Assembly: GCA_044892525.1 (NCBI GenBank) | Contig: CM097885.1 | Span: 25,050,001 to 25,114,000, forward strand | Length of the DNA stretch: 64,000 nucleotides | Origin: Schmidtea polychroa | Lineage: Eukaryota | Direction: 5' to 3' | Shown: one piece after another, positions 1-56,330 of the stretch | Layout of the letters: every line of letters starts with the position of its first letter | Position numbering within the stretch: position 1 is the stretch's first letter | Position numbers and translations under genes: made by a program | The notes under the pieces: model-generated | What the model was told of the DNA's origin: nothing | Seen by the model: the letters and a program-made list of their open reading frames with translations, nothing else | Database searches by the model: none

Positions 1-758
1 CACTCTCTGTTTCGAACTCCTTTAATGCTCCTTTTCTAACTCTTCAGTTCCTCTTATAATTCCTTTTTCTTGAAATTTGTTCCTCAAATTCCTATTGTCA
101 GTTTCTTCTTCAGTACCTAAGGCTACTACCGATTATCTGAATTTGGAATTTCCTTATATACTCCCATAATCGTTGTAATTGCCCCATTTTTCACCTAATT
201 GGTTTTGACTTCCTTAGTTATCGTTCTCTAATTAGTTATTTCTGTTGACCCTTTTAGTAATTCCTCTTCTTTTGTTTATCTTGTGGTGGGTTACTGGTGG
301 TTGAATGTTTAAGTGCTGTTACCAGCGTAACCCAGAATACAACATTGTTTTCCTCTTGGTACCCGTTGAGCAATCAACGTTGGTACTGTACCAAGGGGTT
401 GAGTACTCGCAAAAAGTGAGCGCGTCAAGCACTGTAATCGTCGAGCACTCTATGGGTTCACGGACGCCGATAGAAGGCACGTGTCCGATTTATTTCGGTC
501 CCTCATCGAGATTGTTTTGCCAAACACCTTTCTGTCGACCATCTTGTTCTAGACAATCGCAAAGTTTAATCACATATTCATTAGACAACAAGAATCATTT
601 ATTTAACCACTACTACATTACAAGGTCTGTTTTACTCAGGAGGGGTCGCACTCTCAAATATTCCTCAGGGTCGTGGATTGGCTTCAAGCTCTTTCGATTT
701 TTCTTGCTCGGCGAGCCAGGCCCTTTTCAATTTGTCTCTTGTATTCCGCCCCAGTCGT

Positions 759-1232
759 TTACGTTTCGGCTTGCTTGCCTGGGTAGGCGGGTATATCTTG
801 GCCAGCTCCACCGGAAGTGGGCGAATCTGCTCGCAGAGTGTCCTGGATGAACCTTTCGTTCAGTTTGCTCTCAAGCGAGCGCACTTGTAGCTTCAGCGCT
901 CGGATTTCGAGTTGATCTTGCTCCGCCTGGGTCTGGAGTTGTGCGATGTGTGTTGTCCGTTTCTTCATCTCAGCCGGACTGAACCAAGTACCTTCGAGTT
1001 CTCGGCACTTGACCTTGAGCTTCACGACCCGACTTCGAAAGTCTTCGGCTTGTTGCTGGGCCTGTTCGCGGTCCTTTCGTAGATTTTCGAGGAATTTGTA
1101 CACTAAATGAAGATAATAATGAAGTTCCATAACTAGCTTCCATATGCGTAAATGTGATTCGATTAATTGTATAGAATTAATAGATGAAGGATAGGGAGGG
1201 TCATCTCGTCCCTGGGGACACCCCATACGCAA
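759..1232 (-). pseudogene. Small coiled-coil protein of the large TG...CA element (frameshifted near its 3' end)
   Basis: Heptad-rich (LQTQAEQDQLEIRALKLQVRSLESKLNE). The homologue at 58199-58647 continues LAKIYPP...RAWLAEQEKSKE, which lies in another frame here. A likely splice acceptor precedes VYKFLENL in both copies. Confidence 0.6.
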
Positions 1233-1427
1233 TAAGACCTATATGCAATGACTAAAAGATGATCTATTATACAACGAATATGCACGATGAACAATAATAT
1301 AAAAGTTTTAATAATAAAAATTTCACAAATTGTCATAATTGCTACAAAAACAGGAAAATCAAACGCAACACAGTATCACTAATTGTATCACTCAAATAAT
1401 TTCGTCCGAATTGTCACTACTGATGAG

Positions 1428-1793
1428 TTAGACCGGGTTCTTACGGGGCCTTCCTCGTTTTCGTGGAGGGGCATCTGCCTCCTTCAGCTCTTCGGGGGTT
1501 ACTCCCTCGGCTTCGGCTCTGAGCTGGAGTTCGAGTCTCCTCAGCCGCATCTGGGACACTTCTACCTCGACGGCCGCTCGATCGCGGGCTTCCCGCAACT
1601 CATTGTTGGTGGGCTCTGTTTTCACCCACGCCGGGGCATCGGGCTCTGGGCCACTTCGGATGACCGGACCGTAATTATCTAGGTCCAACCCCCGGTTCCA
1701 ATCGTGGATCCGGTACCAGATGTACCGGGTCCGGAGCCGCGTGATCATTTGATTGTAGGCTTCATCACCGTTAGAGTCGTCAGAGTGAGACAT
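1428..1793 (-). CDS. 121-aa protein with coiled coil and C-terminal AT-hook (PPRKRGRPRK)
   Basis: ATG at 1793 follows an acceptor-like TTATAG. The RGRP AT-hook motif is present. A same-length (366 nt), indel-free homologue lies at 57524-57889. Confidence 0.7.
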   Translation of the reverse strand: MSHSDDSNGDEAYNQMITRLRTRYIWYRIHDWNRGLDLDNYGPVIRSGPEPDAPAWVKTEPTNNELREARDRAAVEVEVSQMRLRRLELQLRAEAEGVTPEELKEADAPPRKRGRPRKNPV

Positions 1794-3129
1794 TCTATAA
1801 TACAAATCGAAATCAGGACACCTTACACAGCCTGATATGAGTCTTTAAGGGACTCGGACAACGGAGTTCATAATTAAAACCTTGCATTCAAAGTTAATCA
1901 TTTTCGATAGTTGTAACTTGGAAAAAAATTTAATGAAGTTGTATAACTAGAGAAACGACTGCAATTACAACCTGGATTTCCGTAATTAATTTTTAGTTAA
2001 AAAGAAATTCAAAAGTCCTGTGTAAATTTTTAGTAAATCTTACGCTTTAACTAAATATATCCTAAAATTGATAACTAAATATATCCTAAAATTGATTAGC
2101 AATTAACTTTGTTTAATTTAATCATTTAAATTTTCAGAATCTTATTTACCACTAGATGGTAATTTAAAATTTTATACATTAATTTTTCCTACGAATTTAT
2201 GAAATTAGACCATTTTGGTAATTTACCACTAAATTCGGGTACACTGGGGCGATAAGTATTAGTGACGAGCTTAGTTTCTCGTTTACTTACTTCTCCCTCG
2301 GTTGTGCTCGTCGTGAGTGGTATAGTCTTCTCTGGCTAGCTTGGAAGTAATTTATTTATTAACAATAAATTTTCAATTTCAGGTACGTTTGGTGGGAATG
2401 GCCGATTTTAACTTTTGAGAGATTGTCATACGATTCCTTACTGGTACTTTTGTTTTATAGTTTATATCCAATACACATTTGCATTTCGTTAATAATAAAG
2501 TTTAGTATTTTCTTTTGGTAATGCTTTTATATTTCATATAAAGTATGTATTCGTAATTTATTAATAATTTATAAAGTTGTTTTTAGGTATTGCGGTAATC
2601 TGTACTATTTTCTCGATGCTTTACTGGTGGTTCAAGTAAGCCTGATTAATCATTCCAAGTTATTAAGGTAAGTTTATCTAACTCTTAATTTCTGGGGCTA
2701 CTAAGTTGACTAAATTTTTCCGTCAATTGATAACCTTGGGTTAAATTAAATTATTATATACACGTAGACACCTATAATAATCACGATAATAGCAATCATA
2801 ATGAGGCTAATGGTAATAAGACCGCTACTGATAATAATATCAGGAATGCTAATAATAATAATGGTAGAGCTATATTCCTATCAGATTACTATCTATGAGA
2901 GAGTCATTCATAAAAAATTAACAATTTGTATTCTATATATATACTGCAAACATTAAGGTAAATTCATAAACTATAACTTAGAAATAACTTAAACACCTAT
3001 GCGATTCTTAAGTATAATACAAATTTAGAGGTAGTGTATACTTATAAATTATACCTGAAGTTTAATATTAAATTATATTTTATATTTTAAGCATATAATG
3101 CATTTAAAATTAGATATTATATTTTGTGA

Positions 3130-3900
3130 TTTAGATACATTAGACATCTATGAATTATATATTCAAGTATAACATAAATTCATATTTTATAATTTAGGCA
3201 TATTAGACATTTATAAATTATATATTTAGGCATAATATAAAATTATATTTTATAAATTAGGCATATTAGACATTTATAAATTATATATTTAGGCATAATA
3301 TAAGATTATATTTTATAAATTAGGCATATTAGACATTTATAAACTATATATTTAATTATAATATAAAATTATATTTTATAAATTAGGCATATTAGACATT
3401 TATAAATTATATATTTAGGCATAATATAAAATTATATTTTATAAATTAGGCATAAATTATATATTTAGGCATAATATAAAATTATATTTTATAAATTAGG
3501 CATATTAGACATTTATAAATTATATATTTAGGCATAATATAAAATTATATTTTATAAATTAGGCATATTAGACATTTATAAATTATATATTTAGGCATAA
3601 TATAAAATTATATTTTATAAATTAGGCATATTAGACATTTATAAGTTATATATTTAGGCATAATATAAGATTATATTTTATAAATTAGGCATATTAGACA
3701 TTTATAAATTATATATTCAGGCATAATATAATTTATATTTCATAAATTAGGCATATTAGATATTTATAAACTATATTTAAGTATAATATAAAATTATATT
3801 TTCTAATTTAGGACTATTGTACATTTATACATTATATTTTTGAGTATCATATTAAGTTACATTTTACAGTTTAGGTATGTTCTGCATTTACCAATTATAT
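3130..3900. repeat. 63-bp AT-rich tandem repeat inside copy A, decaying further to ~4500
   Basis: TATAAATTAGG recurs at 3251, 3314 and 3377 (period 63). Each unit consists of two related half-units containing TAGGCATA. Confidence 0.85.
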
Positions 3901-6039
3901 CTTTAGGTATAATATAAAGTTATATTTTCTCCTTTCGTGCTATCATACATTTATACATTCTATTTTTAAAGATGTATTTTATTTCTCCTTTCGTGCTATC
4001 ATACATTTATACATTCTATTTTTAAAGATGTATTTTATAATTTAATTTTTATAGATTCTAAATCTAGTTCTATTTTATCATTTAGTACTATTACCCAATC
4101 ATACATTATATTTTTAAGTATAATATAAAGATGCATAATTTAATATTTATAGATTATATTTTTAAGTACAATTTTTTAAGTTATTTTCTTAATTTACGAA
4201 TATTTCGCAATTATAAGTTATATTTTAAGCACAATACTAAGTTATATTTTATAATTTAAGGACAATACATATTTACAAATTATATCTCTGAGAATAATTT
4301 TAGGTTATATTCTATAATTCAGGGATACTACATGTTTATAATTTTTATTTTTAAGGGCCATATCAAGTTATATGTTACCATTGAGGAACGCTATCTATTT
4401 AGAAATCATATAATTCTATTTTGTAAATTAAGATGATTATACATTTAGAGATCATGTGTTATTCAAAATTATATTTTATAGTTCGGCATATTGTACATTT
4501 ACGGATTAATAATTTAATGGTAATATGAGGTTACGTTTCACAATTTACTAACATGAGGCCTTCATGAGCTATTCCTTCCTGATTGTATTCTACGATATAA
4601 TTGATCGAGTCTTTTCATTTTATTATTCACGCTTGTCGAACTTCTTTATGAGGATTAATGCTTTTAATTCCGAGAAAAATCTTTACAATGACACGAAAAT
4701 TCTATGTATCAATGAGGTTCGCCAAACGTTTAGGTATAACTGAGTTCCTTAATGATGTCCAACCGACTGCATTACTAAATTGTAAGATGATGTTTATTTA
4801 AGTCTGAGTTCTACTCAATTATGACCTTAGTGGAAAACTATTGTATGAGATTTTTAATGTTGAGTTTAATTGTGTTCTGCATTCGAACTCGGGAAGAATG
4901 CTTGCTTACACGGCCCCACTGTGACCGCTACGACAAGCCCTACTGTAGTGTTGAGTCGAAACATCACTGTCGACCGATAAATAAATATATGGAGCCATAG
5001 CGGAGGGGTTTTATCGACACAACTCTATGGCAGAACCATGAAGTGGCCGACCTCCGATGACCGAACAACAAAAAAAATATATAAAGGATATTGCATGTCT
5101 GCATGTTTCATTTTAGAAAAATTCATTATCATCAAATGTAGGACTAAATAGAGACGCACTGAGACGCCGCTGATCAGTCGTATTTAAAGAAAAAAAAATT
5201 AAATAAAATAAAAAAGTAGGTCCTAAAAATTGATTTACATTAAAATAATTACATAAGTGATTATTCATAGATAAAACATATATCAAATAAAAAAAAATAC
5301 CTACTATTAATTTTTCGGCAAAATTTTCGTCAACAAAATATTGGCATAAAGTGATTGATTGTGACTGAAACGTCTCAGTATATATACCTATTTTGTACAC
5401 GTGTATGTATTGATGCATTAAAACAAACTCGAATTCTTTTTATTCCAGAATTTTCTATTTCGCGATTTTGATATTTTTAATGGCAATTTTTGTGCCATAA
5501 TTTTTGTTTTTATTTTTAAATTTTTATTTTTTAATTATTTTTCGTTAATTTCACGTCCATGATGGATTTGGAACGGTTCCAGAACATTCTATATTACTTT
5601 TAATTTAATTTTTATTTTAACTGATGTTTTATGAATTTCTTTTTAAGATTTTTTTATTTTTATTACTAATTTATTTATTTTTCTAAATTTTATTGTTTAA
5701 GGTAGCTTTTATGATGGTCATCGCCATTTTTATGGAATGTTCTGGGTTTTTCTGGAATTTTTTACTGTTTTTACCATCTTTTAAGTTATTCGAGTTTGCT
5801 TTTTGTAATTCTATGTTTATTTGGTTATTTTTGAGTTAGATTTTGCATAACTTCTTGCTTTTGTATAATTTTTATTTAATTTCTATGTTTATATTTTTTG
5901 TTGTTTCTCTTTTAATCATTATTGTTTATTTGATGTAATTTTATTATTTAACTATACTTTTTGCTTTTTGCATGCTGTGTACTTACACATTTCAGTCACA
6001 ATCATAAGTTTGGGCCTAGAATTCAGTTCTAGCCCAACA

Positions 6040-6580
6040 CTTGTTTATCCGACTGTTTGGATAATTGCCCTCTAAATTCCCAGTTTGTTTATTCTCCAAA
6101 ATTGCCGCGCTCGGGTTTTCTTCATCGCTCGGGTTCTCCATTGGCTCGGACATCCCATTAGCTTGGGTTTCCCATTAGCCAATTAATTAATTAAATAATA
6201 TTTTGTATTTTTCATATTTGCCTGTTTTACGACCCTTTCTAAACATTTTCTAACAATTTCTTACTCATTGTCTTCTTCTCTATCCCTCTCCCGTTTCAGC
6301 TTCAATTTCGATAACATTTCACTTTATTCCACTTCCTCAGGTTTGCGCATCTTTCCATTTCGTGTCTGATTGTACCCTTTTATAGTTCTGTTTTTATCAT
6401 ATATTTCTTTGTCATTACTTCTCTGCTTGACCGCCATTCTTTTTCTTTCAATTTCGGTTTTCTTTTTATTCGGAACTATTCAATTTGATATAATTTAATA
6501 ATTTACTTTTACAACCTAAACAAAATGAATAATTATTCTTTTGTACTTAATTTATTTTTCCATTTTTAAATTAATTCTAA
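6040..6580 (-). repeat. Diverged LTR fragment related to the 38214 LTR; target of copies A and C
   Basis: The reverse complement of 6105-6215 matches the AATTAATTAATTGGCTAATGG..AACCCGAGC repeat block of the LTR at ~38560-38650. Confidence 0.65.
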
Positions 6581-6868
6581 TGGTGGGTTACAAATGATTA
6601 AATATTTTGCTCTTTATTGTTGTTACCAGCGTAACCCATGATACAACATTGTTTTACGCCTTGATACCCGTTGAGTAATCAACGTTGGTACTGTATCAAG
6701 TGGGTGAGTACTCGCAAAAAGTGAGCGCACTAACGGCACTATAATTGTCGGGTACTCTATGGGTCCACGGACTACCGTTAAAAGGTATGTGTCCGATTTA
6801 TACTGGTCCCTTTGCTAGATTTTGTTCTCACATGTATTTGCACATTTACCTACATAAGCATACACATC

Positions 6869-6871
<3 letters not shown>

Positions 6872-6935
<64 letters not shown>
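6872..6935. repeat. (TA)n microsatellite
   Basis: Direct reading. Confidence 0.95.
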
Positions 6936-6943
<8 letters not shown>

Positions 6944-6953
6944 ATCTCATTAA

Positions 6954-7110
6954 CCCATTCGCCGCGTCACAAATTTATCACACTTTCGCCAGGAGCGGCT
7001 TCGGTTTTTTTAAATGAATTAGCTGTTTTTAAAGTAAATCAAAATTATTTATGATTAATATCTTTACAAAATGTTTCTGGTTTTTTTGGGGCCAAGACGC
7101 AGTCAATGTG
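6954..7110. mobile_element. piggyBac-like MITE (157 bp)
   Basis: TTAA on both sides (6950-6953, 7111-7114). Imperfect TIR: CCCATTCGCCGCGTC versus reverse complement CACATTGACTGCGTC. Confidence 0.5.
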
Positions 7111-10022
7111 TTAAGCAAATGAAAATTAATAATAACAATGACTAACTACAAATATTAATTTTTTCCTTTTAATTTAATATTTAATTAAATTAATTTATAT
7201 TTACAATTTCATTTATATTCATTACAATTTTGATTATAGATTAATGCTTTTTCTATTTGACAAATCATGTCGATTGCCATTTTCAATTGTTATATTTTTG
7301 TTATTATTTTTTGTTTAAAGTTATTCATTTTCAATGAACTTTTAAATCGTCCTGAATATTTTTATTTTAAAATTTTTTGTTTATGCATTTTTTAAATAAT
7401 GAAAGTTTAATACCAATGAAATTTTAAGTAATTGAATCGATTTTCTATTATTTATTTCTATTGTTTATTTTAAGTAAATTTTATTCTAAGAAAATTTATT
7501 ATGATGAAGCTGACATAGAAGAGAAAATTATACTAGGTTGGGTCCAGAGGGATAAGCCACTAATAAAACGTCAAATGCAGTGCAGTTAAGACATATCGAA
7601 ACTGGTATAGTTATTAAAAAATCACATTAGTGTTATAATTAATAAATATCAACCTTTGGAATACTTTATCAGGATACCCGATCATTAGAAGGAAATCGAA
7701 AACTAGCTGGACAAATATTGAATACCAAACTGGACATTCCGTGTAATTGAGGAAATGTAGAAATCATTTTAACACAAAAGAAAATGTGATAAGAAGGAGC
7801 GAGATAAGTATAATAAATCTCAAGAGCGCTTCGAAATGACAAAAAAAATGTTCAAAAACATTCTGGAAGAAAACTCCAACAATGATAAATGAATTACTTA
7901 ATTCGATTGCGGAATTGTGTACAAACTTAATCCTGTACTTATGTCAAACAAATAAAAATATCAGAAGTTTGGAATCTGAAAATGAATTTACAATTTTTAA
8001 AATGTTATTCGCTATTTTTGTTTTTTTAAATAAATGAAATTAGAAAATTATTTTTGACTTTTTATTTTTATAATACAACCTTATTAGTGAAATGTTTGAA
8101 TTAGTAATGTTATTAGAATCAATTCTGAAGGATTTGTAGTTATGAAATTGATATAAACTCTAGATGAACCGATCGATATTATAATTTATACATATAATTT
8201 AAATTATTAGATTTGACGTCTTTTTTGTGGGGGGCTGTTACTAGAGATTTACCTAAATATTATTGGGGGAAAAAATTCTAAATTAAATTTGTCATTAGGG
8301 GAATCCTAAAATCAATAATTTGGTTTATAATTTTATTTTATAAATTAAAGATTATGTCAATAATATAATACTAATAGCGCTACCAGTACTAATGATAATA
8401 AGAGTGAAAGTGCTAATGGCAATGATACCAATAATCGTAACAATAATAATATTAATAACGATAATAATAGAGGTAAATATATATTCCTATAAGATTGCCA
8501 CATATGGGGGGGGGGTCATAAAAATTAAGAAATTATATTTTTAAATGAGCTAAAATTTAACCCTATATGAACATGATATAATTCAATACACCCAAGTAAT
8601 AATTAATGGTTACATGTTTTGAGGGGGTTAAAACTATAAGCTATATTTTTAAAAGTAATATAAGTTGGATATATTTGAAAACAAATGAAATTAGTACTTT
8701 CGGGTAATCATTAATGACTATATGATCTGAGGGGGGGTCATTTATAAAAATTTTCAAGTTATATTTTTGAATAAAATATAAGTGGAATATATATTAAGAT
8801 AAGACGATTTAGTATATTTAGGTAATGAATAATGACAGAATGATTTTGAGAGAGGGGGGTTGTTTATAAAATATTTACAACTTATTATGAGATTATAGAT
8901 TATAGATTATTTTTATCGCTAACGTAGTTTATATTTTATACTTTTATGACCAAATTAAGATTATAATTTATACTCTTACAGCTAATATAAGTTTATAATT
9001 TATATTTTTATGAAATTAAATTTATAGTTTATATTTTTAAAGCTAATATAATTTTATAATTTACACTTTTAGGATCAATTATAATTTTTATTTTTTATTC
9101 TGGAATTTTCTATTTTCTATTTTTGATGATTTTAATGGCAATTTTAGTGCCATAATTTTTATTTTTATTTTTAAATTTTTATTTTCTAATTATTTTTGTT
9201 AAAGTTGCCTCCATGATAGATTTGGAGCAATTCCAGAACATTCCATATTAATTTAAGGTTAATTTTTATTTTAATGTTTTTCCTTATTTCTTTTTTCAAA
9301 TTTTTATTTTTTGAACTAATTAGTTTATTTTTGTTAACTTTTGTTGATTTACATGACTTTTATGATGGATGTCGCCATTTTTATGAATTGTTCTGGAATT
9401 TCACCTATAATTTTATATTTTACTATCTTTTGATGTCATTCGAGTCTGCTTTGTTTTATAAATTTTATGTTTCCTTGTTATGTTTGAGTTAATTTTCTTG
9501 CAGTACTTCTTGCTTTTGTGTCATTTTATTAAATTTCAGTGTTTATATTTTTGTTGTTTTGCTCTTTGTTAATATTGTTTATTTGATGTTTTTATCTTTA
9601 TATTTCATTAAACTTATTGCTAGGTATGCGTGATATGTACCACCACACCTCAGTCACAAAATAAAGTTTTCGGTCTAGAAATCAGTTCTAGCCCAACACT
9701 AATAACACCTTCGATTAAATTGCACACTGTTTTGTACATTTGAAATTTATTTGAACTAAAAGGAATAACCCCAACATCTCTAATGATAAGGAAATAATTA
9801 GAGAAGTATTCTTCCGAACTAAAAAGTATAGAACAAGACTAACCAGAAACTGTATGGCGAAAATTTGTTGGGAGGAACGATTATAGAGATAGAAAAGTAC
9901 GTTATAATGATGAAAAAACGCTACAAGCATTAAAACTATCATTCAAAAGTTATCAACAAATATGGAAATGCAGAGTAAATTAGAGAAACATACTTCTTAC
10001 AGTGCTCAAGTTTTTTTCTTGG

Positions 10023-34380: not shown

Positions 34381-37300
34381 TAATTAATAAATTTATTTAT
34401 TTTATTATTTCATTTCGTCTTCTTATCGAAATTTTGGAATAAATATCAAATTTTGTTAATTTGGTTTTGATTTGAAAGTGCATATAATGGATTTTATAGT
34501 GCATATTTTCGGTTGCCCTAATAATTATGAATCCTTATTTTTTGAAGTAGCACCAAAATAACCTTTTTATTAAAATACATTTTTTATTATTAATTAATAA
34601 TGTACTTAATACATGTTTTTATAAAATTATCTTTTATTAATATTGTTGAGTTAGTGTTGTTAAAGTCGGTACTGACTCTGACTCTACATGCTCTTTATTT
34701 CAATTATTAATATAAGACTCAAAACAAAACACTATCAAATGTCAAAAAAATTAATAAAAAGTTCTCGATGAAACTTCTTTCGTTCTGCATTCTTATAAAA
34801 TTCGAAAGCAGGTGGCCCTGATTTGGCAATGATTTTTGTTTTCTTGTCAATTTTAATTAACACATTTAAGCTTGTTTTTCTACAATAACGATATTATAGT
34901 TTCCTCTCTTCAACAAAATAGCATTTTCCCCACAATGTCGCTTACTTTAATATTGTTGTTCCTTCCTATTAATCGGATAATTGAATTTCTATAGCACAAA
35001 GCTTTGGAAAACAAAATAGTTGAACAGGAGCTCTCTTGCCTTTGTTCAAAAATTTCGTTTCAATTTTTATCGATTTTGAAAAGAGACCTAATTTCATTAT
35101 CTTCTTGTTTGCTGCTCGGGTTTCCAAAATAACTAATAAATTATTGATTTATTTGTAATTAATGCGTATTTATTTAATATCCTTTTCTGGGGACCCATCA
35201 TCGATTTCTTATTAATATATCTGTGTTTGTTTCAACGTTCGCTATCCCTAGAATACGCATTTTGATTTTTTCAAATTTTAAATTAATTTCGGATTTTTAT
35301 AGGATTAAGAATTTTATTGATTTGCACTTTTAATATTTTGCACGTTCAAACTTATTTTAAGCTATTTTATACAAACCACAACAATATTTTAATTTTATTA
35401 GATAAACAATAATTAATTACATTAAAAACTAAAAATAATTATTAAATAAAATTGTAATATCGAATTGCCTGATAAAATGGCCACTGTATAAATTAATTCT
35501 AGGCTTGTAGTGTGTATCAATCCAACACATAATACAAAAATGTTATCGATCAAAATCCAGTATAGTTACACCAAAACGCAATAAGTTAAAGTCTAAATGA
35601 AAAAGCATAAAAGCGTCAAAATATAAAAAATAACAAATATTAAATGTATGTGTCACTAAAAAATGACGATAAATAAGGTTCTTTGACAATAAGTATGAAC
35701 CTTATTTTAAATATAAAATAGACATTACGAATTTTTTGAAGATTAACTTTATGTTTACACACCACCAATTATACCATACAAATAAATATGTAAATTTTTT
35801 TAGTTAACTTTTTTGTAGAATTTGTATCAAAAATTGTTGATTTCTACCAAGAAAAATGATTACATAAAATTTAAAAAATCAAAAACACTTAGAAATTCAT
35901 CTAATTAAAGCTTTTCATAAACATCCATTTTATTATAGTGATCTGTTTTACTTTGTTGCAGCAATATCAGTAGTGAATGCTGACTAAGATTTGATGAGTT
36001 CTAGTTAGTAGTGGATAAGTTAGGAGTATTGTTGGGCTAGAACTGACTTCTAGACCCAAAATCCTAATTGTGACTGAAATGTGTAGGTACACAGCAAGTA
36101 AAAAAGCAAAAAGTATAGCTAAATATTAAAAACTACACCAAATAAACAATGGTAATTAAAGGAGAAAGTAACAAAAAATAAACACAGAAATTAAATAAAA
36201 TTATACAAGCGCAAGAAGCTATGCAAAATCTAACTCAAAAATAACCAAATAAACATAGAGTTACAAGAAACAAACTCGAATAACTTAAAAGATGGTAAAA
36301 ACAGAAAAAAATTCCAGAAAAACCCAGAACATTCCATAAAAATGGCGATGACCATCATAAAAGCTACCTTAAACAATAAAATTTAGAAAAATAAATAAAT
36401 TAGTAATAAAAATAAAAATTCTTAAAAAGAATTTCATAAAACATCAATTAAAATAAAAATTAAATTAAAAGTAATATAGAATGTTCTGGAACCGTTCCAA
36501 ATCCATCATGGACGTAAAATTAATGAAAAATAATTAAAAATTTGAAATTTAGAAATAAAAACAAAAATTATGGCACAAAAATTGCCATTAAAAATATCAA
36601 AATCGCGAAATAGAAAATTCTGGAATAAAAAGAATTCGAGTTTGTTTTAATGCATCAATACATACACGTGTACAAAATAGGTATATATACTGACACGTTT
36701 CAGTCACAAGCATCACTTTTATGCCAATATTTTGTGAACAAAATTTTGTCAAGAAAACTAACAGTAAGTGGTTTTTCTTCTTTGAGTGATGTTCATCATT
36801 TTCAGTATTGATAATAATATTTGTATATGATTCATTAATGCAAATTATTTTAATGATTTTAATTGATTTTAACCCTCTCAAGACCTGACTTGTTTTTATT
36901 TTTTTTTGACTAATCAGCGGCGTCTTAGTGCGTCTCTATTTAGTCCTGCATTTAATATTAATTTTCAAATAACGATTTCACATGCAGACAGGCAATATCT
37001 CGTATATATTTTTTTTGTTCGGTCATCGGAGGTCGGCCACTTCATGGTTCTACCATGGAGTTGTGTCGATAAAACCCCTCCGCTATGGCTCTATATGCTT
37101 TATTTATCGGTCGACAGTGATGTTTCGACTCAACATTACAGTAGGGCTTGTCGTAGCGGTCACAGTGGGGCCGTGTAAGCAAGCATTCTTCCCGAGTAAA
37201 TGCAAACATAATTAAACTCAACACTAAAAATCTCTACAACACAAACATCCTAAGGTTAATAAACAGAGTAGAACTCAGACCTAAATTAATCACAACTCAA

Positions 37301-38143
37301 CATTCATACCTAATGTGGACGGTTGATTTCATCAAAATTCGGCCTATGCGTTGTCGAACATAGATTTGGAGATGTCCCACATAAAAGTTCTAGAAAAATA
37401 AAGATTTCCGTCAATGATTGATTTAGTAATACGGGCCTCCATAGGTGTTAGACATGCGTATCGGCAGGGTTTGGATGTTAAATTGAATTAACTTCAAGCG
37501 AACGATAAAAATACTAACCGTAGTAGTATAAAACTCCATAAAACCATGAATTGTATTTGTAGTTTTAGTTACTTTTGAAGGGAAATTCGGATTAATTATA
37601 AATGTATAAATCATAGACTTAACTTCTGGAAATTATAAATTATATTAACGTTTAAAACTATAAACTATAATCTATGTCAATTATAAAATATAAATCATGA
37701 ATGGTGCTATATAAATAGTAAATGTAACCAACCCGTAAAATACTTGTATATAAATTCATAAGTTGTAAATAGTCATGTATAAATTATATATGTATCAGGG
37801 TTATAAAATATAAGTTGTAAATAATTATATAAATTTTTTATTATAAAATATAAAGTATAGATGGTTGCACCTAACTTATACATGTATCTTGATGCTCGAA
37901 AAGGAACCCATAATTAGCCATAGATAAATTCTGTCTACGAAAATAGTAATTCTAAGTAATTATATGAAATTTTTGATTACAAAATACAAAGTATAAAGGA
38001 TTGAATATAAATTATACATATATCTTGATTTCATAAAAATAAACTATATATAAATTATAAAATTATATATAAATTTTGATCCTAAAAAATAAAGTATAAA
38101 ATGGTTATACATAGAGGTTGAGTATAAAATATAAATAGTTATA

Positions 38144-38213
<70 letters not shown>

Positions 38214-38218
<5 letters not shown>

Positions 38219-39270
38219 AGGTCTGTAAATTAAAATTAAAATTTAAATAAAATTTAGGATAATAATTCAAATGGAAAGTAAGCGAGGAAAAATGGCAAAT
38301 AAAAGCGGGATCGTGCACAGAATTAATAGTAAAGAAAAATGCGATGGAAGCAGTATTAGAAAATGCAAAAAGCAATTACGAAAGGCGAGAATCCGGAAAT
38401 CCGAGAAAAATCAATAAATGGAAAAATCATCGAAATCGAATGGGAAAAACGGGACAGGTATAGATTAGCTAATGGTCAACAAGATGATGGTTAGGGATTT
38501 ATCAGAAAAGGGTTAGGAAGGGTCGAAAAACATTCAAACGTATGAAAACAGAAAACGTTAATTAATTAATTAATTGGCTAATGGAAAACCCGAGCTAATG
38601 GGAAACCCGAGCCAATGGAGAACCCGAGAGATAAAGGAAACCCGAGCTGGGTAAACAAGAAGAAAGGCAAACAAAAGGAAGATTTGGGCCCATTAGTTTG
38701 ACACAATGATTAATGGGAAAAGAGTAAGGAGAAGATAACGCGCGTAGGAAGACCGGTAGGGCCATTAATTATCTGGATTCGTTGGACCATTATGGATGAC
38801 AGCCGAAGCAAACACGTAGGAGAAAATGTCAAACGAAAGATTGGCTCGGCAATAACCATTTGTCATCCTGATTTCGAGGAGTATATAAGCAAAGGGAAAA
38901 TCAGAGAAAATCGGCATTTTGCCTCAGCTAGGGTTCGAAGAATTAGACTGTAGGAAAAGTGGTAAACGAATTAGGGAAGTAGGGAAAAGAAGAAATAGAA
39001 TTAAGAATACGGAAAGGAGAAAAGAGATCAAACCAAACCGAAACCGAGGAAAACGAGAGTCAACAGAACTAAAGGATCAAAAGGTGAATATTGTTTGTTT
39101 GCAAAGCATCAACACCGAGCAGAGAATCGTGTAAAACTTTGATTGGTAATTGTAGAGTGATAATAAATTGTGAACCTGTTGTTTCAATATACGTTGGGTC
39201 GTTCATTGTTTTAATTTAAAGAACACCAGGAGTCAGAGAGAACCGACTTGAAATAATCCAAAACCCAACA
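38214..39270 (+). repeat. 5' LTR
   Basis: Direct repeat of 54567-55623. TATA-like TATATAA at ~38882 and AATAAA at ~39163. Confidence 0.95.
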
Positions 39271-39277
39271 TATATTC

Positions 39278-39295
39278 TGGTGAGCCCGACGTGAT
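39278..39295 (+). promoter_or_regulatory. Primer-binding site, tRNA-Trp type
   Basis: TGGTGAGCCCGACGTGAT differs at one position from the classical tRNA-Trp PBS TGGTGACCCCGACGTGAT. Confidence 0.8.
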
Positions 39296-39551
39296 TGAAA
39301 GTCGGAGGAAAAAATTATTGGAAGTTAGTGAAAAAGAAATTATTAAAAAAATTTAGTACCGACGCGATAGAGAGTCGGCTGAGAATCATTGAAAGTAGTG
39401 AAAATTTGTGAAAATTGTGCTAACGAGATTATTAAAGGCTATTATTGGGAGATTTGAAAGAAGTTGAAAAGTAATTTTAAATTATTGTTTAACGTTTGAA
39501 GTTTAGCTCAAAGTGAACCGATACAACCTCAGAAGCCAGAAACAAGTCCAA

Positions 39552-42500
39552 ATGGCAAATGATAATGCTGTTATGCCTCTCAATAGAGAGATGATTGATT
39601 TCGCAAGTTGCCAGAAATTACCCGTCAATCAATATGGAGGAGACCCTGTTGAATTTGCAGATTTCATGGGAGATTATTATATGTACGCCTCAGCATACGG
39701 ATGGACACAAGCCATTATGGTTCAGAGATTCCCACTCTATCTGAAGGGTGCGGCAAGAGAAGCCTGGCAGCAAGTCGACAAACGAAATGTTGGCAATGAT
39801 TGGACAAAATTGAAGGATGCAATGGCACTGAAACTGGTTGGTGGAGATATCAAAAGAATCATGCGACAGAAATTTTATAATCGAGTTCAAGGTCCAGATG
39901 AATCGGTCAGTGAGTTTGCTTATCATCTGACCACTTTAGCAGATAAAGCCTTTGAAGTTAAACCAGACCAAGCAGATATGGCCAAGCAGGTTAAAGAGCT
40001 ATTAGAAGATCAGTTTATAACCGGAGTCCACTCCGAAATCAAAAAAGCCCTATGTTATGTGGATTTTTCCAATTTTGATGAGCTCGTGAAGAAAGCCATG
40101 AAGATAGAGCTGAATTTAAAAAGTGCAAAAAGATCAGATGCTTTTGGAGTTAATGTGGAGAGACGTGAGCGATCAATTACGCCTGTGAGAGCACCATGGG
40201 ATGAAAAGAAAATAAATCAGATCAGTAGTCCAATTTTGAGACCAAATAATAGATTTCAAGCCAGTAGATCAGCCATGAACGTACAATCAAATGGACAGGT
40301 AAATAATCCTCAATGCGAACATTGCAAAAAGTCTGGACACTACTCAAATCAATGTTGGTTCAAATATGGGAAAAATCCCAGCCCTAACAAGAGATTCACA
40401 GAAAACAAACGGATCAGCAGTGATGTCGAATGCTATCGATGCGGAAAGAAAGGGCATATTAGCAGAAACTGTTTTACCAGATCAAGGTCATCGTCAACGT
40501 CACCTTCACCACAAAGGGACAAAGTGAATACAAATGGACAGATCCAATGTCATTCGTGCAAGGGATACGGCCACATGGCTCGATCATGCCCAAGGAACTC
40601 AGAAAGATTCAACAGACCTATCTTAAAGAAATCAATCAGATTCCAAGAAGATATGCCAAACACCAGTAACATGACATATGCTCAGAGAGAGGAATTTCAA
40701 GACAAAATGGAAAAGGAATTTCGAGAAATGCGACAGAAGCTAAACAAACTAGTGGCGAAATTTGAATCAGATGAGGAAACTGAATCTCATATGATAATTG
40801 GAACCGTGTCAGAAGGTGAGGGAAAACCTGCCACGAAAGTGCGAAAGATCTCTTCAGATGAGAATCCAACTGCACTGTTAGCCCGAGTTGAAAAATGGCT
40901 TGAGAAAATGGAAACTGACAACTCCCAGTTGAAACGATGGATCGCAGAACTCAGTGTGATGTCACTAACCCAAAGCGAACTAAAGAGAGCCATAAATTTA
41001 TGTGCAAAGTTATTCAAAGGAAACAGAGACGATGAGATACTTAAACAAATGCAAAAGTTTGGCAAGGCTTTACGGTTAACAAGGGATTTAGCTGATATCA
41101 TAGTGGAAACGACGGGACTTGATAATGTGAAGTGCCAATTCCGTGTAAATGCCTACGGAAAAATCAGAGAGTTAAAGGAGCGAATCCTGCGTCAATACAG
41201 TGGATGGCAAGTGCAATTAAAATTCGAAAATCGATGTCTGGAAGACGAAGAGTACTTAGTAGATTGCGGTCTGATACCAGGCTGGAAAAATAAAGTAAAT
41301 GTTATTAATGCTGTTAATACTTTGAATTCAGACAGACGAAATTGGGAAAAGATTCTAGCAGATTTACAAGATACCCTGTATGCAGGGAATAGAGATAAAA
41401 TTAATGCGAGTATCGACTTCATAATGAGCATCGAAATGGATCGAGACATGAAAGAAGGGTTGTTTGAATGCATCGTACCGTATACGAATAAACCGACGAG
41501 TTATCAGGCAAAACTAAAAGAGGTAATCCGAAAACTAGGACATGATTATGAGGCGGCAGACGATAGTGCGAAGTCTTTGATAATAGCGTTAAATATTGCG
41601 GATCAAAGGATTGAATATTATCAGGAACATTGGAGTGTAAAAGCAAAGAAAATACGACAAAAAGCAGCGGAGATATTAGGTAATGAAGGAATTATCGTGT
41701 TGACGTTCAAAGGACGAGAATTGGATGATGACGAATATTTATTAAACTACGGATGTAACCCAAATTGTATTAATAATGTGTACGCAACAAAACAAAGTGA
41801 TGAAATGGAAAGAGATGCGGTAATAGTACCGTTTTGGCCTCTATATGAGGAAATGGATAATAATAATGTGGAGATTAAAACTGAAGTTGTAGATGACCCA
41901 GGAGAAATTGATCAAGAAATTAATGAATTGCAGAGATTAGAAACAATGGAAAATGAGGAAATGGGATCGGAAAATGAAGTTGCAAGGGATATCGGGGAAA
42001 TGAGCACCGATAATAGGGTACTACCGAGCATAGATGAGATGAAGAGCGAAGAGAACTTCGTTGAAACGAAAAATGACATTGCGATATGTCGGAAAAAACA
42101 GAATGATGCGGAAATTGAATCTTTGAGTTTAGATAAATCGAGCGAAACTGAGCGTTTAGATGAATCAAACGAGACTGAACGAATATTAAAAAGTTTAGTT
42201 ACGGAATTGTACTTGTTAGATGAAACTGAAACAGAAGATGATACTTCGGAGGGGGAGGAAAGAGTTGTAAAAAGATTGGCAACGGAATTAAAGAGGAGAT
42301 TACCGTCGATAATTAAAAGAAATTATGAAGAAAAGGAATTTTGTGAGGAAGCAGTGATTGAGGACCTAACACGAACTGAGTTAGATCGAGATGTAATATT
42401 GACAGCGTTAGCCTATATAATATTGGAGATTGGTATTTATGGTTGTCTGGAAAGTGACAGTTCAAAATCATTGATAAAGAAAGCTACGGAAATGACGAAT

Positions 42501-45500
42501 AAATATTTGGCTAGGTGGATCGCAAACAATGGCGGATGGGAAAATTTGATACAAAAGGCTGAGAGCCCAAAAACCGAGACAGTGAGGAAAAAGGGAAAAC
42601 TCGCATTTCCATGGTTGATGATTTCTGTTATTATGTTATTGGGAATAATAAACACGACGAATTCATTGGTGGCATACGACTGCTCCCAAACCGAAATGGG
42701 AAGAGTATATTCGTTGGTAAACGTAGCAGAGTGTTCGGATGCATATCCAGTAAAATTTAAAGTGACAAATCCAGTAAAATATTATGTATATCAAGAATCG
42801 GGATTTCGACGAGCAAAGGTGAGAGAGTGTACAGTGAAACGAACTACTTTTGTATTTTATTGTGGAAAATGGAGTCACTCATCGATGGTGAAAATGCAAT
42901 CGATACCTAGACCGATAGAAATAATTCCAGAGAATTGTTTGGCAGCCTTTCAAACAGGACAGTTGAAAATCAATGCAGATCTCAAACTACAAGCAAAGCT
43001 TAACCACAAAATCCGTGAGACTGTAACCGTGCGAGGGATAATAAAGTCGAATGGTGATTGCCAAGGCGAGCCATACAAAGTAGACGATGCTATAATGGAC
43101 AAAGCCGTGGTTGTGGAAGAGTACATGTCAGAATTAAGAGAATTTGATGGATCATTTGATGATGATACTGGTAAACTACAAACACATCCATTCTGCAACA
43201 TGAAACAATCTAGCTGTCGGACAGGAGAATCAATCTTGGTGTACGATGTCGATACCAAAAAGTGCAATTTAGTGCAATTGAAGTCAATGAGTTTTAAAGA
43301 AATAACGGGAGAACAGATCAGGGAAAAGCCTGAGAAAATAAGAATGGATCCAGCAACGAGTACAACAACAAGAATCACACCTCTACGGATGAAAGATACT
43401 CCAACAGTGTTAATGTCAACCTCGGAGGAAGATGGGATGCGATTCCTGAGAAAAGAAACTAAAACAAAGTGTGGACAAAGTGTCTATGAGACAAATTATA
43501 AAGGTATATATGTATCTCAGAAGATGATTACAGAGGCCCAAACAAACATACATGCCGGAGATATTAAGTTGACAAATTACTTTAATAACAAAATAGATTA
43601 TTTATTTCACTTTGGTCAAAATACTGTTGAAAATGTGTACCGAGAAGTTATTATAAATGATTGCAATCTCAACAAAGAAATACTCCGAAATCGGATGGCA
43701 ATGGCTATAACCAATCCTAATTTGGTAGCACCAATGTTAATTGCAGAAAATGGAGTGTTCGCCAGAATTTTCGGTGAAGCACTATATAGCTATAAATGTA
43801 AAGCGGTACCAGTTAAACTGACAAAGTATGACCAATGCACCAACGAGTTACCAGTGAATTTAAATGGAAAGTTGCGATTTATGGAGCCTGTAACACGAAT
43901 CTTACTGGAAGAGGACGCGAAACCGAAAGTATTACAGTGCAATAGATTGTTAGCACCATTATACAGACTAACACCAGAATCTTGGATTGCATTACCAGAT
44001 CATCGAGAAGTAAAGACACCGGAAAACTTAGAATTGACAGAATTACAATATCTGGTAAATTTTACGTCGTTAGAAAAATTGTCGCAAAGTGGAATTTACT
44101 CGAACGAAGACATTGAGGAAGCTCGCAGAAACTTGTTATTTCCATCAAAGAAAGAAAGAGTAATAATGGAAATGGTAGATACAATTCTCCCAAGCGGAAG
44201 TGGGAAGGTAAATTATGAGTATTTGTTAACTCCAGATCATTACAAGAAAGCGACGTATAATACAATGAAAAAGATCTGGGGAAAGTTTATGTTCATTGGA
44301 CAAGCATGTGCCGGATTGATTGGAATTTATGTAATATGTGTTGTAATCAAAGTAATAATATCGCAGGCCCTATCAACACACAGATTATATGCGATCACAG
44401 GTTGGTCGTGGAAACTAGTAATTGGTTGCATACCATTATTGGCTAGATTCTTCATTACTCATCATCAATATCAGGAGTTGGAGATACTCAAGGCTCGAAT
44501 ATTAAAGAAGAAAAAGGTGAGCTACGCGAGTACAACCCCTTCAAGGGACGAGAACAATGACAATGACAACGAGGGTGATAGTGCACCGTTATATGTTGAC
44601 AATCAAGAACTAAGTGGAATGAATAAAGAAGCGTTAAGAACCTATCAAATCTTAAAAGAGCCACTGTTGAATGCGAGTAGCGTAGACACGTTTACAAAAC
44701 TGTGTATACCAAAATCATTTATGCAACCAGCACCAGTGTATCCAGTTGATCGATTACGAGAGATGAAACCAGTGGAAAATATCGCATTACAATGTGAAGG
44801 AATGGTAGGAGAGAGAATCGAGCCTTCTAGCGCAGAGATCGAGAGAAAAAATATGTTAGGCTTACCATGCAACTACTCAATGATGACATTAACAAAAAGA
44901 GGAAAGCAACCCCGAATATTTATACAAATGAACAAACATAAAGTGGAAGCTTTAGTCGATTCGGGATCTAGTCACACAATAGTATCGGAAAATGTATTAA
45001 ACGCGAAGGAAAAAATGCGAATGAAGCCTACCGGTGAAATAGTGAGGTCATTATCAAAAAATGAATTAAACATAATTGGACAACTTAACGTCATATTCCA
45101 TATTGGAGATCGAATAATAGCGCACGATGCGCTCATAATGAAGGGAAGTCCAGTACGATGTCTGATCGGCATGGATATATTAGAGCAGCTGGACGGAGTC
45201 TCACTTGAGTTAAAGACAGGTAATTTGATAGCAGGAGAAACAGGAGAAATAATTCACAGGGCAGGTGAAGTGTTTGTGAATCAGACATTGACAATACCAC
45301 CACAATCGGAGATGGTATATTGTGCAAATACCATGAGTGTGGATAATGGTGATTTTATATTCGAACCAAATCAAACGCTAGTCGAAAAATATGATTTACC
45401 GATATGTGACGAAGTTGTCAAAGTGGAAAATCAGATAGTACCAGTCCATATAACGAATAGCAGCAAAAAACCGGTTCAGCTACACCCAAAAACAAAATTG

Positions 45501-49160: not shown

Positions 49161-49516
49161 AGACGGCATGGGAATTAACAGTTAAATATCAGCGATGGAT
49201 AACCGATCCAGGCAGATGGCAAACAGTTTTCGTGGAAGTCAAGACAATCAATGAATCGAAACGAAAATCATATACAACCACATCACCTTTCCAATTACCG
49301 ACCCAAGAGACGACAAAACCTAACTCAAACAAACTAAGGATGATAAATTCGGATTTGACAGTCAACTATTGTGAATATCTTATTTACATTTTAATAACAG
49401 GTTTTCTCATCTTATCAATAACATTCATAATCATCACCATCTTGATATGTGTAAAAGAGAGACAGCTAACTATCCTTCAACCACCATCATATTCATATTA
49501 TGAGACAAGACTATAA
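49130..49516 (+). CDS. -1-frame extension of the polyprotein: Ser/Thr-rich stalk, TM helix and PPSY tail
   Basis: The frame opens just before T TTT TTA (49133-49139) and reads LYTSDLETAWELTVKYQRWITDPGRWQTVFVEVKT...LIYILITGFLILSITFIIITILIC...QPPSYSYYETRL. Confidence 0.7.
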   Translation, partial: SFFTLYTSDLETAWELTVKYQRWITDPGRWQTVFVEVKTINESKRKSYTTTSPFQLPTQETTKPNSNKLRMINSDLTVNYCEYLIYILITGFLILSITFIIITILICVKERQLTILQPPSYSYYETRL

Positions 49517-49694
49517 ATTGTGATCTGCATGAATAGTGTAAAAAAAATATATATTACATTTATATTAACAATGTGCATGTTTTATAAGTACCATAGGATG
49601 AACTGTGTAATTTGTTTGAGATTCGAAGTGAGGTGTTGATGCTTTGCGAATAAAGAGTGATACAAAAAAAATGACTATCATTTAATTTCAGAGA

Positions 49695-49940
49695 ATGCAA
49701 GAAGCCTCGGAGATGACATGCAAAGAGTGTAAAACAAGTACGCAAGAACTAAAACAAAAGTTTCGTAGCATGCAGGGCAGAATAACAGATTTGGAGGAAG
49801 AAAACTTCCGTCTGAAAAGGCGGTTGGACCGTTTGGAAATCTTATTGTTTCAACACGAAGCCGATTTCGCGATGTTTCGAATGAGAGTAGAAGAAATGGA
49901 GGAATCGGAAGATGATGGTGAGATAAATCAATTAGACTAA
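49695..49940 (+). CDS. Small coiled-coil accessory ORF (CxxC plus leucine-zipper-like)
   Basis: CKEC followed by ITDLEEENFRLKRRLDRLE heptads. Acceptor-like TTTAATTTCAG ends 4 nt before the ATG. Confidence 0.55.
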   Translation: MQEASEMTCKECKTSTQELKQKFRSMQGRITDLEEENFRLKRRLDRLEILLFQHEADFAMFRMRVEEMEESEDDGEINQLD

Positions 49941-50401
49941 AAAAATTAATTATTTAAACGGACCCTGTTGGTGTTTTTTCGTCCTCGAGAAAAACAAATA
50001 ATAGTTAAATAATTATAAGTAAATTAACAAATAATCAAATGAATAAACAAATTGATATAAATAAATAAGTAAAAAAGTGATAAATTAAATGAATGAATAA
50101 TAGATAAAAATGAACAAAGTTAAACGAGCAAATAGAATAACTCAAATAAATGTTGCAAATAATGAAATGACTACCTTAAATGAGCATTAGAAATAAATAA
50201 TATGGCTGATTAGTAATTAATGAATTAGCATAACTATATAGCAATGGGTAAACCACTGGGGCGAGAGAACAAAATTATAAATAAGTAAGGAATAATTTCA
50301 CATTAGTAGTAACAAAAACTATTCGCGAAGAGGGACACAATTACCCCACCCTTTCTAGCATAAATTAAAAACAAAGGTATGCTGAACATTTATTCAAAGT
50401 T

Positions 50402-50644
50402 TTATTCGTCATCAGAGTCCAACAGAACGGGACTTTGGATGCCACAATCCCATTCCCTGCGTACATTGCAAGGCGGGCGTCTTTCAAACCTACTGCCTGT
50501 ATCCACACAGGCAAAGGTACGTTTCAATCCCTTTCGACGCGGTGACAAAGGGACCCTGAAAAAGAAATTAAAAAACCTGTTAGTATGGCAGTCAAATAAC
50601 CATTGCATAACATCGAGATGCTCAAACTTAGGTTCTGGGACAGC
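50402..50644 (-). CDS. Candidate terminal exon of an antisense accessory gene
   Basis: Polypyrimidine tract plus TTTTAG acceptor at 50645, 80 open codons (AVPEPKF...LLDSDDE), AATAAA overlapping the stop, and higher GC than the flanks. Confidence 0.45.
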   Translation of the reverse strand, partial: AVPEPKFEHLDVMQWLFDCHTNRFFNFFFRVPLSPRRKGLKRTFACVDTGSRFERRPPCNVRREWDCGIQSPVLLDSDDE

Positions 50645-52365: not shown

Positions 52366-52483
52366 TACGATAATTGGAGTAGGATTGTGATAAATAATAA
52401 TAATATTGATAAAATAATAATATTGATAATAATAATGGTGATGATAGTGGTAATAACAGCAATAATTATAACAATATATAATG

Positions 52484-52534
<51 letters not shown>

Positions 52535-55618: not shown

Positions 55619-55623
<5 letters not shown>
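54567..55623 (+). repeat. 3' LTR
   Basis: Direct repeat of 38214-39270, preceded by the PPT and followed by (TA)n. Confidence 0.95.

Positions 55624-55668
<45 letters not shown>

Positions 55669-56275: not shown

Positions 56276-56330
<55 letters not shown>

What the first reader, a model, noticed from the sequence alone, without database searches (positions are those of the whole stretch)
284..6039. Family of 3-6-kb TG...CA elements with 4-bp TSDs, hairpin ends and no transposase (three copies here)
Seen: copies at 284-6039 (TSD CTTG), 6581-9698 (TSD CTAA) and 36030-58997. One end (CCCAACA) matches the LTR end of the Gypsy clan in this window, and the 4-bp TSD matches its solo LTR at 12129. 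Both ends fold back: TGGGTTAC...GTAACCCA and TTGGG(C)CTAGAA...TTCTAGCCCAA. The interior holds satellites, structured blocks and two small genes. Inference: these are either solo LTRs of a giant retroelement with multi-kb, gene-bearing LTRs, or a non-autonomous unit that borrows a Gypsy integrase.
Basis: partly seen in the sequence, partly recalled or inferred. Interest (0 to 1): 0.7.

Follow-up and report, generated by a model that had tools for sequence, protein, structure and literature searches.

The report
Gene-bearing giant solo LTR family
These three 3-6 kb insertions are real members of one repeat family and are likely the leftover long terminal repeats of a giant Burro-type retrotransposon of a flatworm-like animal, unusual in that two copies carry two small conserved protein-coding frames and the third carries a broken captured host gene.

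Summary
The family is real. Three copies share both ends. Copies 1 and 2 have perfect 4-bp TSDs; copy 3 has 3 of 4 and is 5.55 kb once a nested 17.4-kb Burro-like Gypsy is subtracted. Public contigs show the host repeat without copy 1 and thousands of variant contigs. The terminal inverted repeat is only about 7-10 bp, which excludes Ginger-type TIR elements; there are no internal LTRs. Termini and TSD length match the Burro-like LTRs in the window, so solo LTRs of a giant Gypsy are the best reading (0.7). It is not proven: no genome was held and no paired copy, PBS or PPT was seen. New details: two ORFs under purifying selection (AT-hook protein, dN/dS 0.52; coiled coil, 0.15-0.28) without homologues; RNA hairpins that fold better on the strand opposite the genes, so the genes are probably antisense; and a broken C12orf65/MTRFR-like gene with an intron-sized insert inside copy 2. 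The 4.9-5.2 kb block is conserved but not structured. Three sequence look-ups found no earlier scan report of this family; an unchecked note reports a 30-kb Burro in the same genome.

The parts
284..6039 (+). Copy 1, 5,756 bp, putative solo LTR (TGGTGGG...CCCAACA)
   Evidence: empty site in public contigs
280..283 (+). Left TSD of copy 1 (CTTG); right copy 6040-6043
284..510 (+). Terminal block shared by all three copies; series of hairpins; most widely shared part in public contigs
   Evidence: depth table
620..1106 (-). ORF2, coiled-coil protein with a basic C-terminal stretch; frameshifted in copy 1 near 833; start codon or upstream exon not identified; limits approximate
   Evidence: dN/dS 0.28, 0.15, 0.27 in three gap-free blocks; shared acceptor-like site near 1110
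1428..1793 (-). ORF1, 121 aa, open in copy 1; two predicted helices and a C-terminal AT-hook-like motif
   Evidence: AT_hook E 0.062, below cut-off; dN/dS 0.52, p 0.028
2218..2330 (+). Conserved rod-like hairpin with four invariant G-U pairs on the plus strand; overlaps a shared donor-like GTAAGT (2290) on the minus strand
2774..2862 (.). AAT-type simple repeat zone, also in copies 2 and 3
3042..4411 (.). 63-bp AT-rich satellite array and degenerate flanks
4860..5170 (+). GC-richer conserved block without significant fold, followed by TATATAA near 5078 in copy 1; candidate promoter (inferred); absent from copy 2
5437..6039 (+). T-rich 600-nt terminal block shared by all three copies, ending in a hairpin and CCCAACA
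6581..9698 (+). Copy 2, 3,118 bp, diverged subfamily with the same ends and another interior; TSD CTAA
7520..7790 (+). Broken C12orf65/MTRFR-like (RF-1 domain) gene piece in copy 2, with about 48 extra nt at 7619-7669, at the position of human intron 2
   Evidence: (E 6.4e-9 to 7a5h_C)
36030..38213 (-). Copy 3, CCCAACA-end part
55624..58997 (-). Copy 3, TGGTGGG-end part, with ORF1 (57524-57889, in-frame stop at 57659) and ORF2 (about 58192-58647, frameshift near 58308) on the window plus strand
38214..55623 (+). Nested young Burro-like Gypsy inside copy 3's (AT)n: 1,057-bp LTRs differing at 2 sites, PBS, PPT, one long Gag-Ub-Bcl2-fusion glycoprotein-PR-RT-RH-IN frame. Not part of the family, but the local model for its termini
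6044..6576 (-). Piece of the host LTR (69% like the nested element's LTR over 6102-6511) into which copies 1 and 2 both inserted; it continues at 1-279 and probably 9703-9776

Best explanation
The three elements are one repeat family with shared TG...CA ends and 4-bp target duplications, and are likely solo LTRs left when giant Burro-type Gypsy retroelements recombined between their two multi-kb LTRs. Shown: exact shared ends, TSDs, insertion into another repeat, many variants, two ORFs under purifying selection, hairpins, and a captured host gene in copy 2. Inferred: a full-length element was reverse-transcribed and inserted by a Gypsy integrase with a 4-bp stagger; LTR-LTR recombination then removed gag-env-pol and left one LTR between the TSDs. 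The LTR is long because its U3 holds accessory cargo (genes, satellites, captured host DNA) that differs between subfamilies, while the two end blocks are kept. Orientation is probably TGGTGGG to CCCAACA (about 60:40), which puts a candidate promoter at 4860-5100 before a T-rich R-U5 and makes both genes antisense, with their own predicted promoter near 2320-2356, donor at 2290, acceptor at 1794 and polyA signal at 494. ORF1 would be a small nuclear AT-hook regulator binding the element's own AT-rich arrays, ORF2 a coiled-coil partner; both functions are untested.
For: Termini: 7-10-bp imperfect inverted repeat, as short as in the nested and solo Burro-like LTRs, and the same CCCAACA end. 4-bp TSD as at the clan's solo LTR 12129-13174. 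No TIRs, no internal direct terminal repeats, no transposase. No PBS- or PPT-like flank at any of the 6 ends, as expected for solos. Copies 1 and 2 sit in an LTR of the same clan; 45, 46 and 5 contigs of runs X1, X5, X7 run from position 278 straight into the right-flank sequence, the empty site. 5,541 and 2,727 contigs of two runs lie on 2.6 kb, with summed depth over 287-460 about 6-fold (X1) and 16-fold (X5) above the best gene bin (not a copy number), so more elements share the end than the interior, as copy 2 does. The nested element's own 3' region has the same kind of cargo: a small coiled-coil ORF, a structured block, a 35-bp satellite and AAT repeats. The Burro domain order is present in this genome (PMC6431247 section 7), and that review gives up to 25 kb internal and over 30 kb total, so LTRs of several kb. 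Burro LTR lengths of about 2.7-5.3 kb are recalled from Grohme et al. 2018, not seen in any call.
Against: No paired copy around gag-pol, and no shared PBS or PPT, was seen: no genome was held, and among the 24 loose-end rows shown of 737 none is a shared continuation at 284. The one contig seen crossing that end (X11, 50 loose letters) continues into sequence that is neither PBS- nor PPT-like. Beyond the last 7 nt the family's ends are no more like the nested LTR than shuffles are (scores 59, 73, 99 against shuffle means 58, 68, 100). Copy 2 lacks the candidate promoter block, which an LTR of a replicating subfamily needs. The clan's LTRs in this window are only about 1.05 kb. Orientation evidence conflicts: folds favour the plus strand; the genes, an A-rich first 600 nt and one contig ending in 16 A on the minus strand at 2196 favour the minus strand. 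Copy 3's TSD has a mismatch.
Confidence: 0.7

Rival explanations
1. A non-autonomous unit without terminal direct repeats that is itself the mobile species, mobilised in trans by a Burro-clan integrase (from one-LTR circles, tandem transcripts or excised DNA), with its two conserved end blocks as cis signals and interchangeable cargo between them.
For: 3 of 3 copies here stand alone. Both end blocks (230 and 600 nt) are far longer than integrase att sites and are kept across subfamilies whose interiors are unrelated. End hairpins are conserved. Copy-2-type ends are multi-copy (24 contigs in X5 diverge at 351 into copy-2-like sequence) although copy 2 has no obvious promoter block.
Against: Solo LTRs commonly outnumber full elements (general knowledge). 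Standard reverse transcription needs terminal redundancy, absent here. An autonomous giant element is reported in this genome (unchecked note e1-7879936).
Confidence: 0.18
2. Non-autonomous cut-and-paste DNA transposon of the Ginger type (Gypsy-like integrase, 4-bp TSD) carrying cargo, Pack-style.
For: 4-bp TSD; one end reads TGTTG, fitting the TGTNR pattern; copy 2 holds host DNA with an intron-sized insert, which DNA-level capture would explain.
Against: Ginger TIRs are about 40-270 bp (PMC2836005 passages); here 7-10 bp. TSDs are not CCGG/CCGT. The other end reads TGGTG. Strand-asymmetric G-U pairs point to an RNA stage.
Confidence: 0.07
3. Copies 1 and 3 are solo LTRs, but copy 2 is a one-off copy rearranged after insertion, in which a deletion and a patch of host DNA replaced the genes.
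For: Copy 2's foreign interior (about 6830-8200) starts at an (AT)n/(GT)n microsatellite and lacks the promoter-like block.
Against: Its ends are 16-23% diverged from copies 1 and 3, and copy-2-like ends recur in many contigs. The interior's copy number was not tested.
Confidence: 0.3

Closest known systems
Burro/GYPSM1 giant Gypsy-like retroelements of planarians (Jurka 2007 and Grohme et al. 2018, as reviewed in PMC6431247)
   Same: Same kind of genome (a Gag-Ub-BCL2-env-pol element lies inside copy 3); multi-kb size expected of their LTRs; tandem repeats and accessory ORFs are drawn in the review's figure legend; high abundance.
   Different: No internal region is linked to these copies here. 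Protein-coding genes or captured host genes inside Burro LTRs are not mentioned in the review section read; the original paper, its supplement and Lee et al. 2026 were not held, so a prior description cannot be excluded.
Ogre elements of dicots (LTRs 1.9-6.5 kb, PMC6431247)
   Same: LTR length range.
   Different: Plant lineage; extra ORFs are in the internal region.
Retand/Grande/RIRE2 antisense accessory ORFs and HTLV-1 HBZ (PMC11963269 passages)
   Same: Small, probably nuclear, DNA-binding proteins next to tandem-repeat arrays, antisense to the genome; proposed regulators.
   Different: There the ORFs lie between pol and the 3' LTR; here they lie inside the TSD-bounded unit. No TRP28 or other Pfam domain above cut-off.
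Ginger1/Ginger2 DNA transposons (PMC2836005)
   Same: 4-bp TSD, Gypsy-like termini.
   Different: No long TIRs, no transposase, no CCGG target.

Membership tests
Solo LTR of a Gypsy element | TG...CA ends with a short imperfect inverted repeat | tested here: met
   6 of 7 terminal bases pair, 8 of 10
Solo LTR of a Gypsy element | 4-6 bp TSD directly at both ends | tested here: met
   4/4 in 2 of 3 copies, 3/4 in the third; empty site for copy 1
Solo LTR of a Gypsy element | No PBS or PPT in the flanks of the solo copy | tested here: met
   6 of 6 flanks inspected
Solo LTR of a Gypsy element | The same sequence occurs as a direct pair around gag-pol with PBS and PPT | tested here: inconclusive
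   No genome; no shared junction among 24 of 737 loose-end rows shown; contigs break at repeat ends
Solo LTR of a Gypsy element | U3-R-U5 layout (start site and polyA site inside the repeat) | not testable with these tools
   No listed holder is on record as RNA; contigs give no start or strand
Burro/GYPSM1 | Element over 30 kb with one Gag-(Ub, BCL2)-Env-PR-RT-RH-IN polyprotein attached to these LTRs | not testable with these tools
   No internal region linked. The nested element has the domain order but is 17.4 kb with other, 1-kb LTRs
Burro/GYPSM1 | Sequence identity to published Burro LTRs | not testable with these tools
   No Repbase or planarian genome collection; Grohme et al. not held
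Ginger DNA transposon | TIRs of about 40-270 bp | tested here: not met
   7-10 bp only (definition)
Ginger DNA transposon | 4-bp TSD | tested here: met
Ginger DNA transposon | Ginger1 target CCGG/CCGT | tested here: not met
   CTTG, CTAA, GTAT/ATAT
TRIM/LARD non-autonomous LTR elements (definition recalled) | Own pair of terminal direct repeats with internal PBS and PPT | tested here: not met
   No direct repeat between the two ends of any copy
Helitron/Helentron (definition recalled) | No TSD | tested here: not met
   TSDs present

The most novel reading that the evidence does not exclude
The unit is not a recombination leftover but a self-contained, LTR-like mobile cassette: two conserved hairpin-bearing end blocks recognised by a Burro-clan integrase, with swappable cargo between them (its own AT-hook and coiled-coil regulators in one subfamily, an unspliced host gene in another), spreading without a gag-pol of its own and without terminal direct repeats.
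Probability: 0.18. Interest if true: 0.8.

Novelty: new variant of a known kind. Interest (0 to 1): 0.45.

Why it matters
If these are Burro-type LTRs, every full element carries two copies of a two-gene accessory module, and every solo LTR leaves one behind, so the genome holds many dispersed copies of a candidate transcriptional regulator of the element. Burro1 is reported to support planarian stem cells (cited in PMC13465017 passages), so LTR-borne regulators are a concrete lead on how such elements are switched on. Copy 2 suggests that these LTRs can also take up intron-bearing host DNA. If the unit instead moves on its own, it would be an undescribed route of non-autonomous mobility.

Tried and rejected
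Whole genome: none held. Homologues of ORF1: none in the 5.8-billion set (49 candidates, 0 pass), none among 1.84 billion representatives, no usable Atlas hit. ORF2 segment of copy 3: none (4 candidates; Atlas best 0.88, lead only; one weak PHROG hit E 0.005 typical of coiled coils). Longer or shorter length classes were not searched. No similarity of the genes to the nested element's 3' region or to copy 2's interior. The single-sequence fold of ORF1 is low confidence (pTM 0.32), so no fold search was run. Rfam: nothing at gathering score in the window; two chance-level hits in copy 1; no tRNA. End motif not found in metagenome or viral contigs. No RNA holder listed; runs X7 and X11 are only guessed to be RNA, so expression is not shown. 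A piggyBac-like start at 6950 has no matching other end. A deletion remnant made of part of a 5' LTR plus the 3' internal region plus a 3' LTR was rejected because the first 230 nt are not repeated inside any copy. Scan look-ups by sequence found 0 windows in 3 of 3 tries. Literature: 10 searches gave no paper describing genes inside Burro LTRs; supplements of PMC11410931 (one file unreadable) and PMC13309565 (files 13-16 not searched) had no 'Burro'. Grohme et al. 2018 and Lee et al. 2026 were not held, and their texts or supplements may bear on novelty.
Full report
Observation. A self-comparison of the window and end listings confirm three related elements: copy 1 (284-6039), copy 2 (6581-9698) and copy 3 (36030-58997, opposite strand). 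Homology stops at the same bases in all three, so the borders do not depend on the TSDs. Copies 1 and 2 have perfect 4-bp TSDs, and 3, 5 or 6 bp do not fit; copy 3 has GTAT/ATAT. The chance of 4/4 from local composition is about 0.01 per site, of at least 3/4 about 0.10. Public contigs give independent support: 45, 46 and 5 contigs of runs X1, X5 and X7 leave the window at 278 and continue with the sequence found right of copy 1, which is the host repeat without the insertion.

Copy 3 is not 23 kb of family sequence. A 17,410-bp LTR element sits in its (AT)n tract (38214-55623), with 1,057-bp LTRs that differ at 2 sites, a PBS and a PPT. Its long frame (3,201 aa as scanned) has Gag, a weak ubiquitin hit, a weak Bcl-2 hit, a Monjiviricetes-type fusion glycoprotein, protease, RT, RNase H and integrase. 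That is the Burro order described in PMC6431247 (section 7 read whole). Without it copy 3 is 5,554 bp, close to copy 1's 5,756 bp.

Anatomy. Copies 1 and 3 are 78% alike over 284-2775 and 86% over 4778-6039; between lie AAT repeats and a 63-bp satellite. Identity peaks at 284-483 (95-98%), 2218-2259 (42 identical nt), 4900-5099 (91-97%) and 5400-5799 (94-100%). Copy 2 shares only the two end blocks and the satellite zone. The terminal inverted repeat is 6 of 7 bases, as short as in the window's true LTRs; there is no direct repeat between the ends and no transposase. Copies 1 and 2 both inserted into an LTR related to the nested element's LTR.

Genes. ORF1 (1793-1428, 121 aa) is open in copy 1 and has a stop in copy 3; dN/dS is 0.52 over 120 codons (p 0.028), while five control frames give 0.69-1.31, none significant. 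It ends in an AT-hook-like motif (Pfam E 0.062, below cut-off) and is predicted as two long helices at low confidence. ORF2 is a coiled coil; three gap-free blocks give dN/dS 0.28, 0.15 and 0.27 (p 0.021, 0.0002, 0.0013), and the six other frames tested are not significant. Each copy has its own frameshift. So the frames were under selection in the lineage, and the copies here are decaying. Both copies keep a donor-like site at 2290, an acceptor right before the ORF1 start, another near 1110, and AATAAA at 494; a spliced transcript is inferred, not shown. No homologue was found for either protein.

RNA structure and orientation. The 2218-2330 rod folds at z -4.1 and -4.6 on the element's plus strand against -2.4 and -2.0 on the minus strand, with four invariant G-U pairs and four one-sided changes that keep pairing, in two sequences. 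The first 147 nt also fold better on the plus strand in all three copies, strongly in copies 1 and 3; the three-copy structure has 4 pairs of 63 with changes on both sides (5 of 500 shuffles; minus strand 3 of 59, 19 of 500), which is weak with three related sequences. Against it stand the gene strand, the A-rich first 600 nt of the minus strand and one X11 contig that ends in 16 A at 2196 on the minus strand, which may be genomic. I put orientation at about 60:40 for plus.

Family size. 5,541 (X1) and 2,727 (X5) contigs lie on 200-2800, with 515 variant places. Summed depth at 287-460 is 1.5-1.7 million in X1 against at most 0.29 million over the genes, and 0.34-0.36 million against 0.022 million in X5. 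The tool warns that this is no copy number, but it suggests that many more elements share the end than the interior. Loose ends at 351-355, 421-429 and 465 show further end variants, some like copy 2.

Copy 2's cargo. Read with stops as X, 7520-7879 matches human C12orf65 (E 6.4e-9; Pfam RF-1 E 5e-6), with 16 extra codons at the place aligned to Lys94/Cys95. Human intron 2 follows Lys94 (PMC4568311 passages). The insert has no clean GT-AG ends, so it is an intron-sized insert at a conserved intron position, probably a decayed intron. It lies on the element's plus strand. A kept intron on the transcribed strand would need capture of unspliced RNA or DNA, so this detail fits the minus orientation or a DNA-level event somewhat better. 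Unchecked scan notes report spliced host pieces in BEL/Pao LTRs of the same genome; this case differs.

Mechanism. The simplest account is insertion of a full-length Burro-type element by a Gypsy integrase and later LTR-LTR recombination. It explains the LTR-type termini, the 4-bp TSD shared with the clan's solo LTR at 12129, the lack of TIRs and transposase, and the size: the review gives up to 25 kb internal and over 30 kb total for Burro, and I recall LTR means of about 2.7-5.3 kb from Grohme et al. 2018, which I could not open. The decisive link is missing. No genome was held, and none of the 24 loose-end rows shown (of 737) is a shared PBS or PPT at 284; contigs break at repeat ends, so this blank is weak. 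The single contig seen crossing the end runs into a non-PBS, non-PPT flank. Copy 2's lack of the candidate promoter keeps the mobile-cassette rival alive (0.18). Ginger fails on TIR length (PMC2836005 passages).

What was read. PMC6431247: passages and section 7. PMC2836005, PMC11963269, PMC4568311, PMC8532177, PMC13465017: passages. PMC11410931 and PMC13309565: passages and a term search of part of the supplements. Grohme et al. 2018, Jurka 2007 and Lee et al. 2026: nothing seen directly. TRIM/LARD and Helitron definitions and the commonness of solo LTRs are recalled.

Verdict. A real, abundant family, most likely giant solo LTRs of a known class of element, with features I did not find described in the texts available: selected accessory genes inside the repeat and intron-position host DNA in a sister subfamily. 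New variant of a known kind; interest 0.45.

Noticed in passing
38214-55623: Young, compact (17.4 kb) Burro-like Gypsy with 1-kb LTRs, an open 3,200-aa Gag-Ub-Bcl2-fusion glycoprotein-pol frame, a PBS separated from the LTR by 7 nt, and a 5.4-kb 3' region with a small coiled-coil ORF (49695-49940), a structured block (50400-50548, z -3) and satellites; inserted in (AT)n.
   Followed up: partly
17347-30277: Polinton/Maverick-like element with 248-bp inverted repeats (98%) and a 1,452-aa protein-primed polymerase frame, inserted into a Gypsy element.
   Followed up: no
14525-32452: Minus-strand Gypsy element with very short 118-bp LTRs (99% alike), split by the Polinton; a piece of its pol region appears on both sides of the insertion zone.
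   Followed up: no
12129-13174: Solo LTR with CATT TSD; its last 200 nt are related to the nested element's LTR (score 106 against shuffle maximum 97).
   Followed up: partly
5356-5380 and 5980-6004: A 25-nt inverted repeat brackets the conserved last 650 nt in copies 1 and 3; copy 2 keeps only the outer arm.
   Followed up: partly
2196: One contig of run X11 (highest depth in that run) ends in 16 A on the minus strand just after the conserved rod; a polyA site or a genomic A run.
   Followed up: no
10023-10770: 178-bp direct repeats (89%) around a short stretch that looks like a decayed integrase piece.
   Followed up: no
32915-34300: Broken DUF659 transposase-like gene (Pfam E 3e-7).
   Followed up: no
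13512-13978 and 14007-14097: Short repeated ends of a MITE-like element and a 91-bp near-perfect palindrome.
   Followed up: no
60500-61250: Another decayed LTR piece related to the nested element's LTR (about 70%).
   Followed up: no
62605-63984: Host-like methyltransferase exon (Pfam Methyltransf_32, E 4.5e-23), the only apparent host gene in the window.
   Followed up: no
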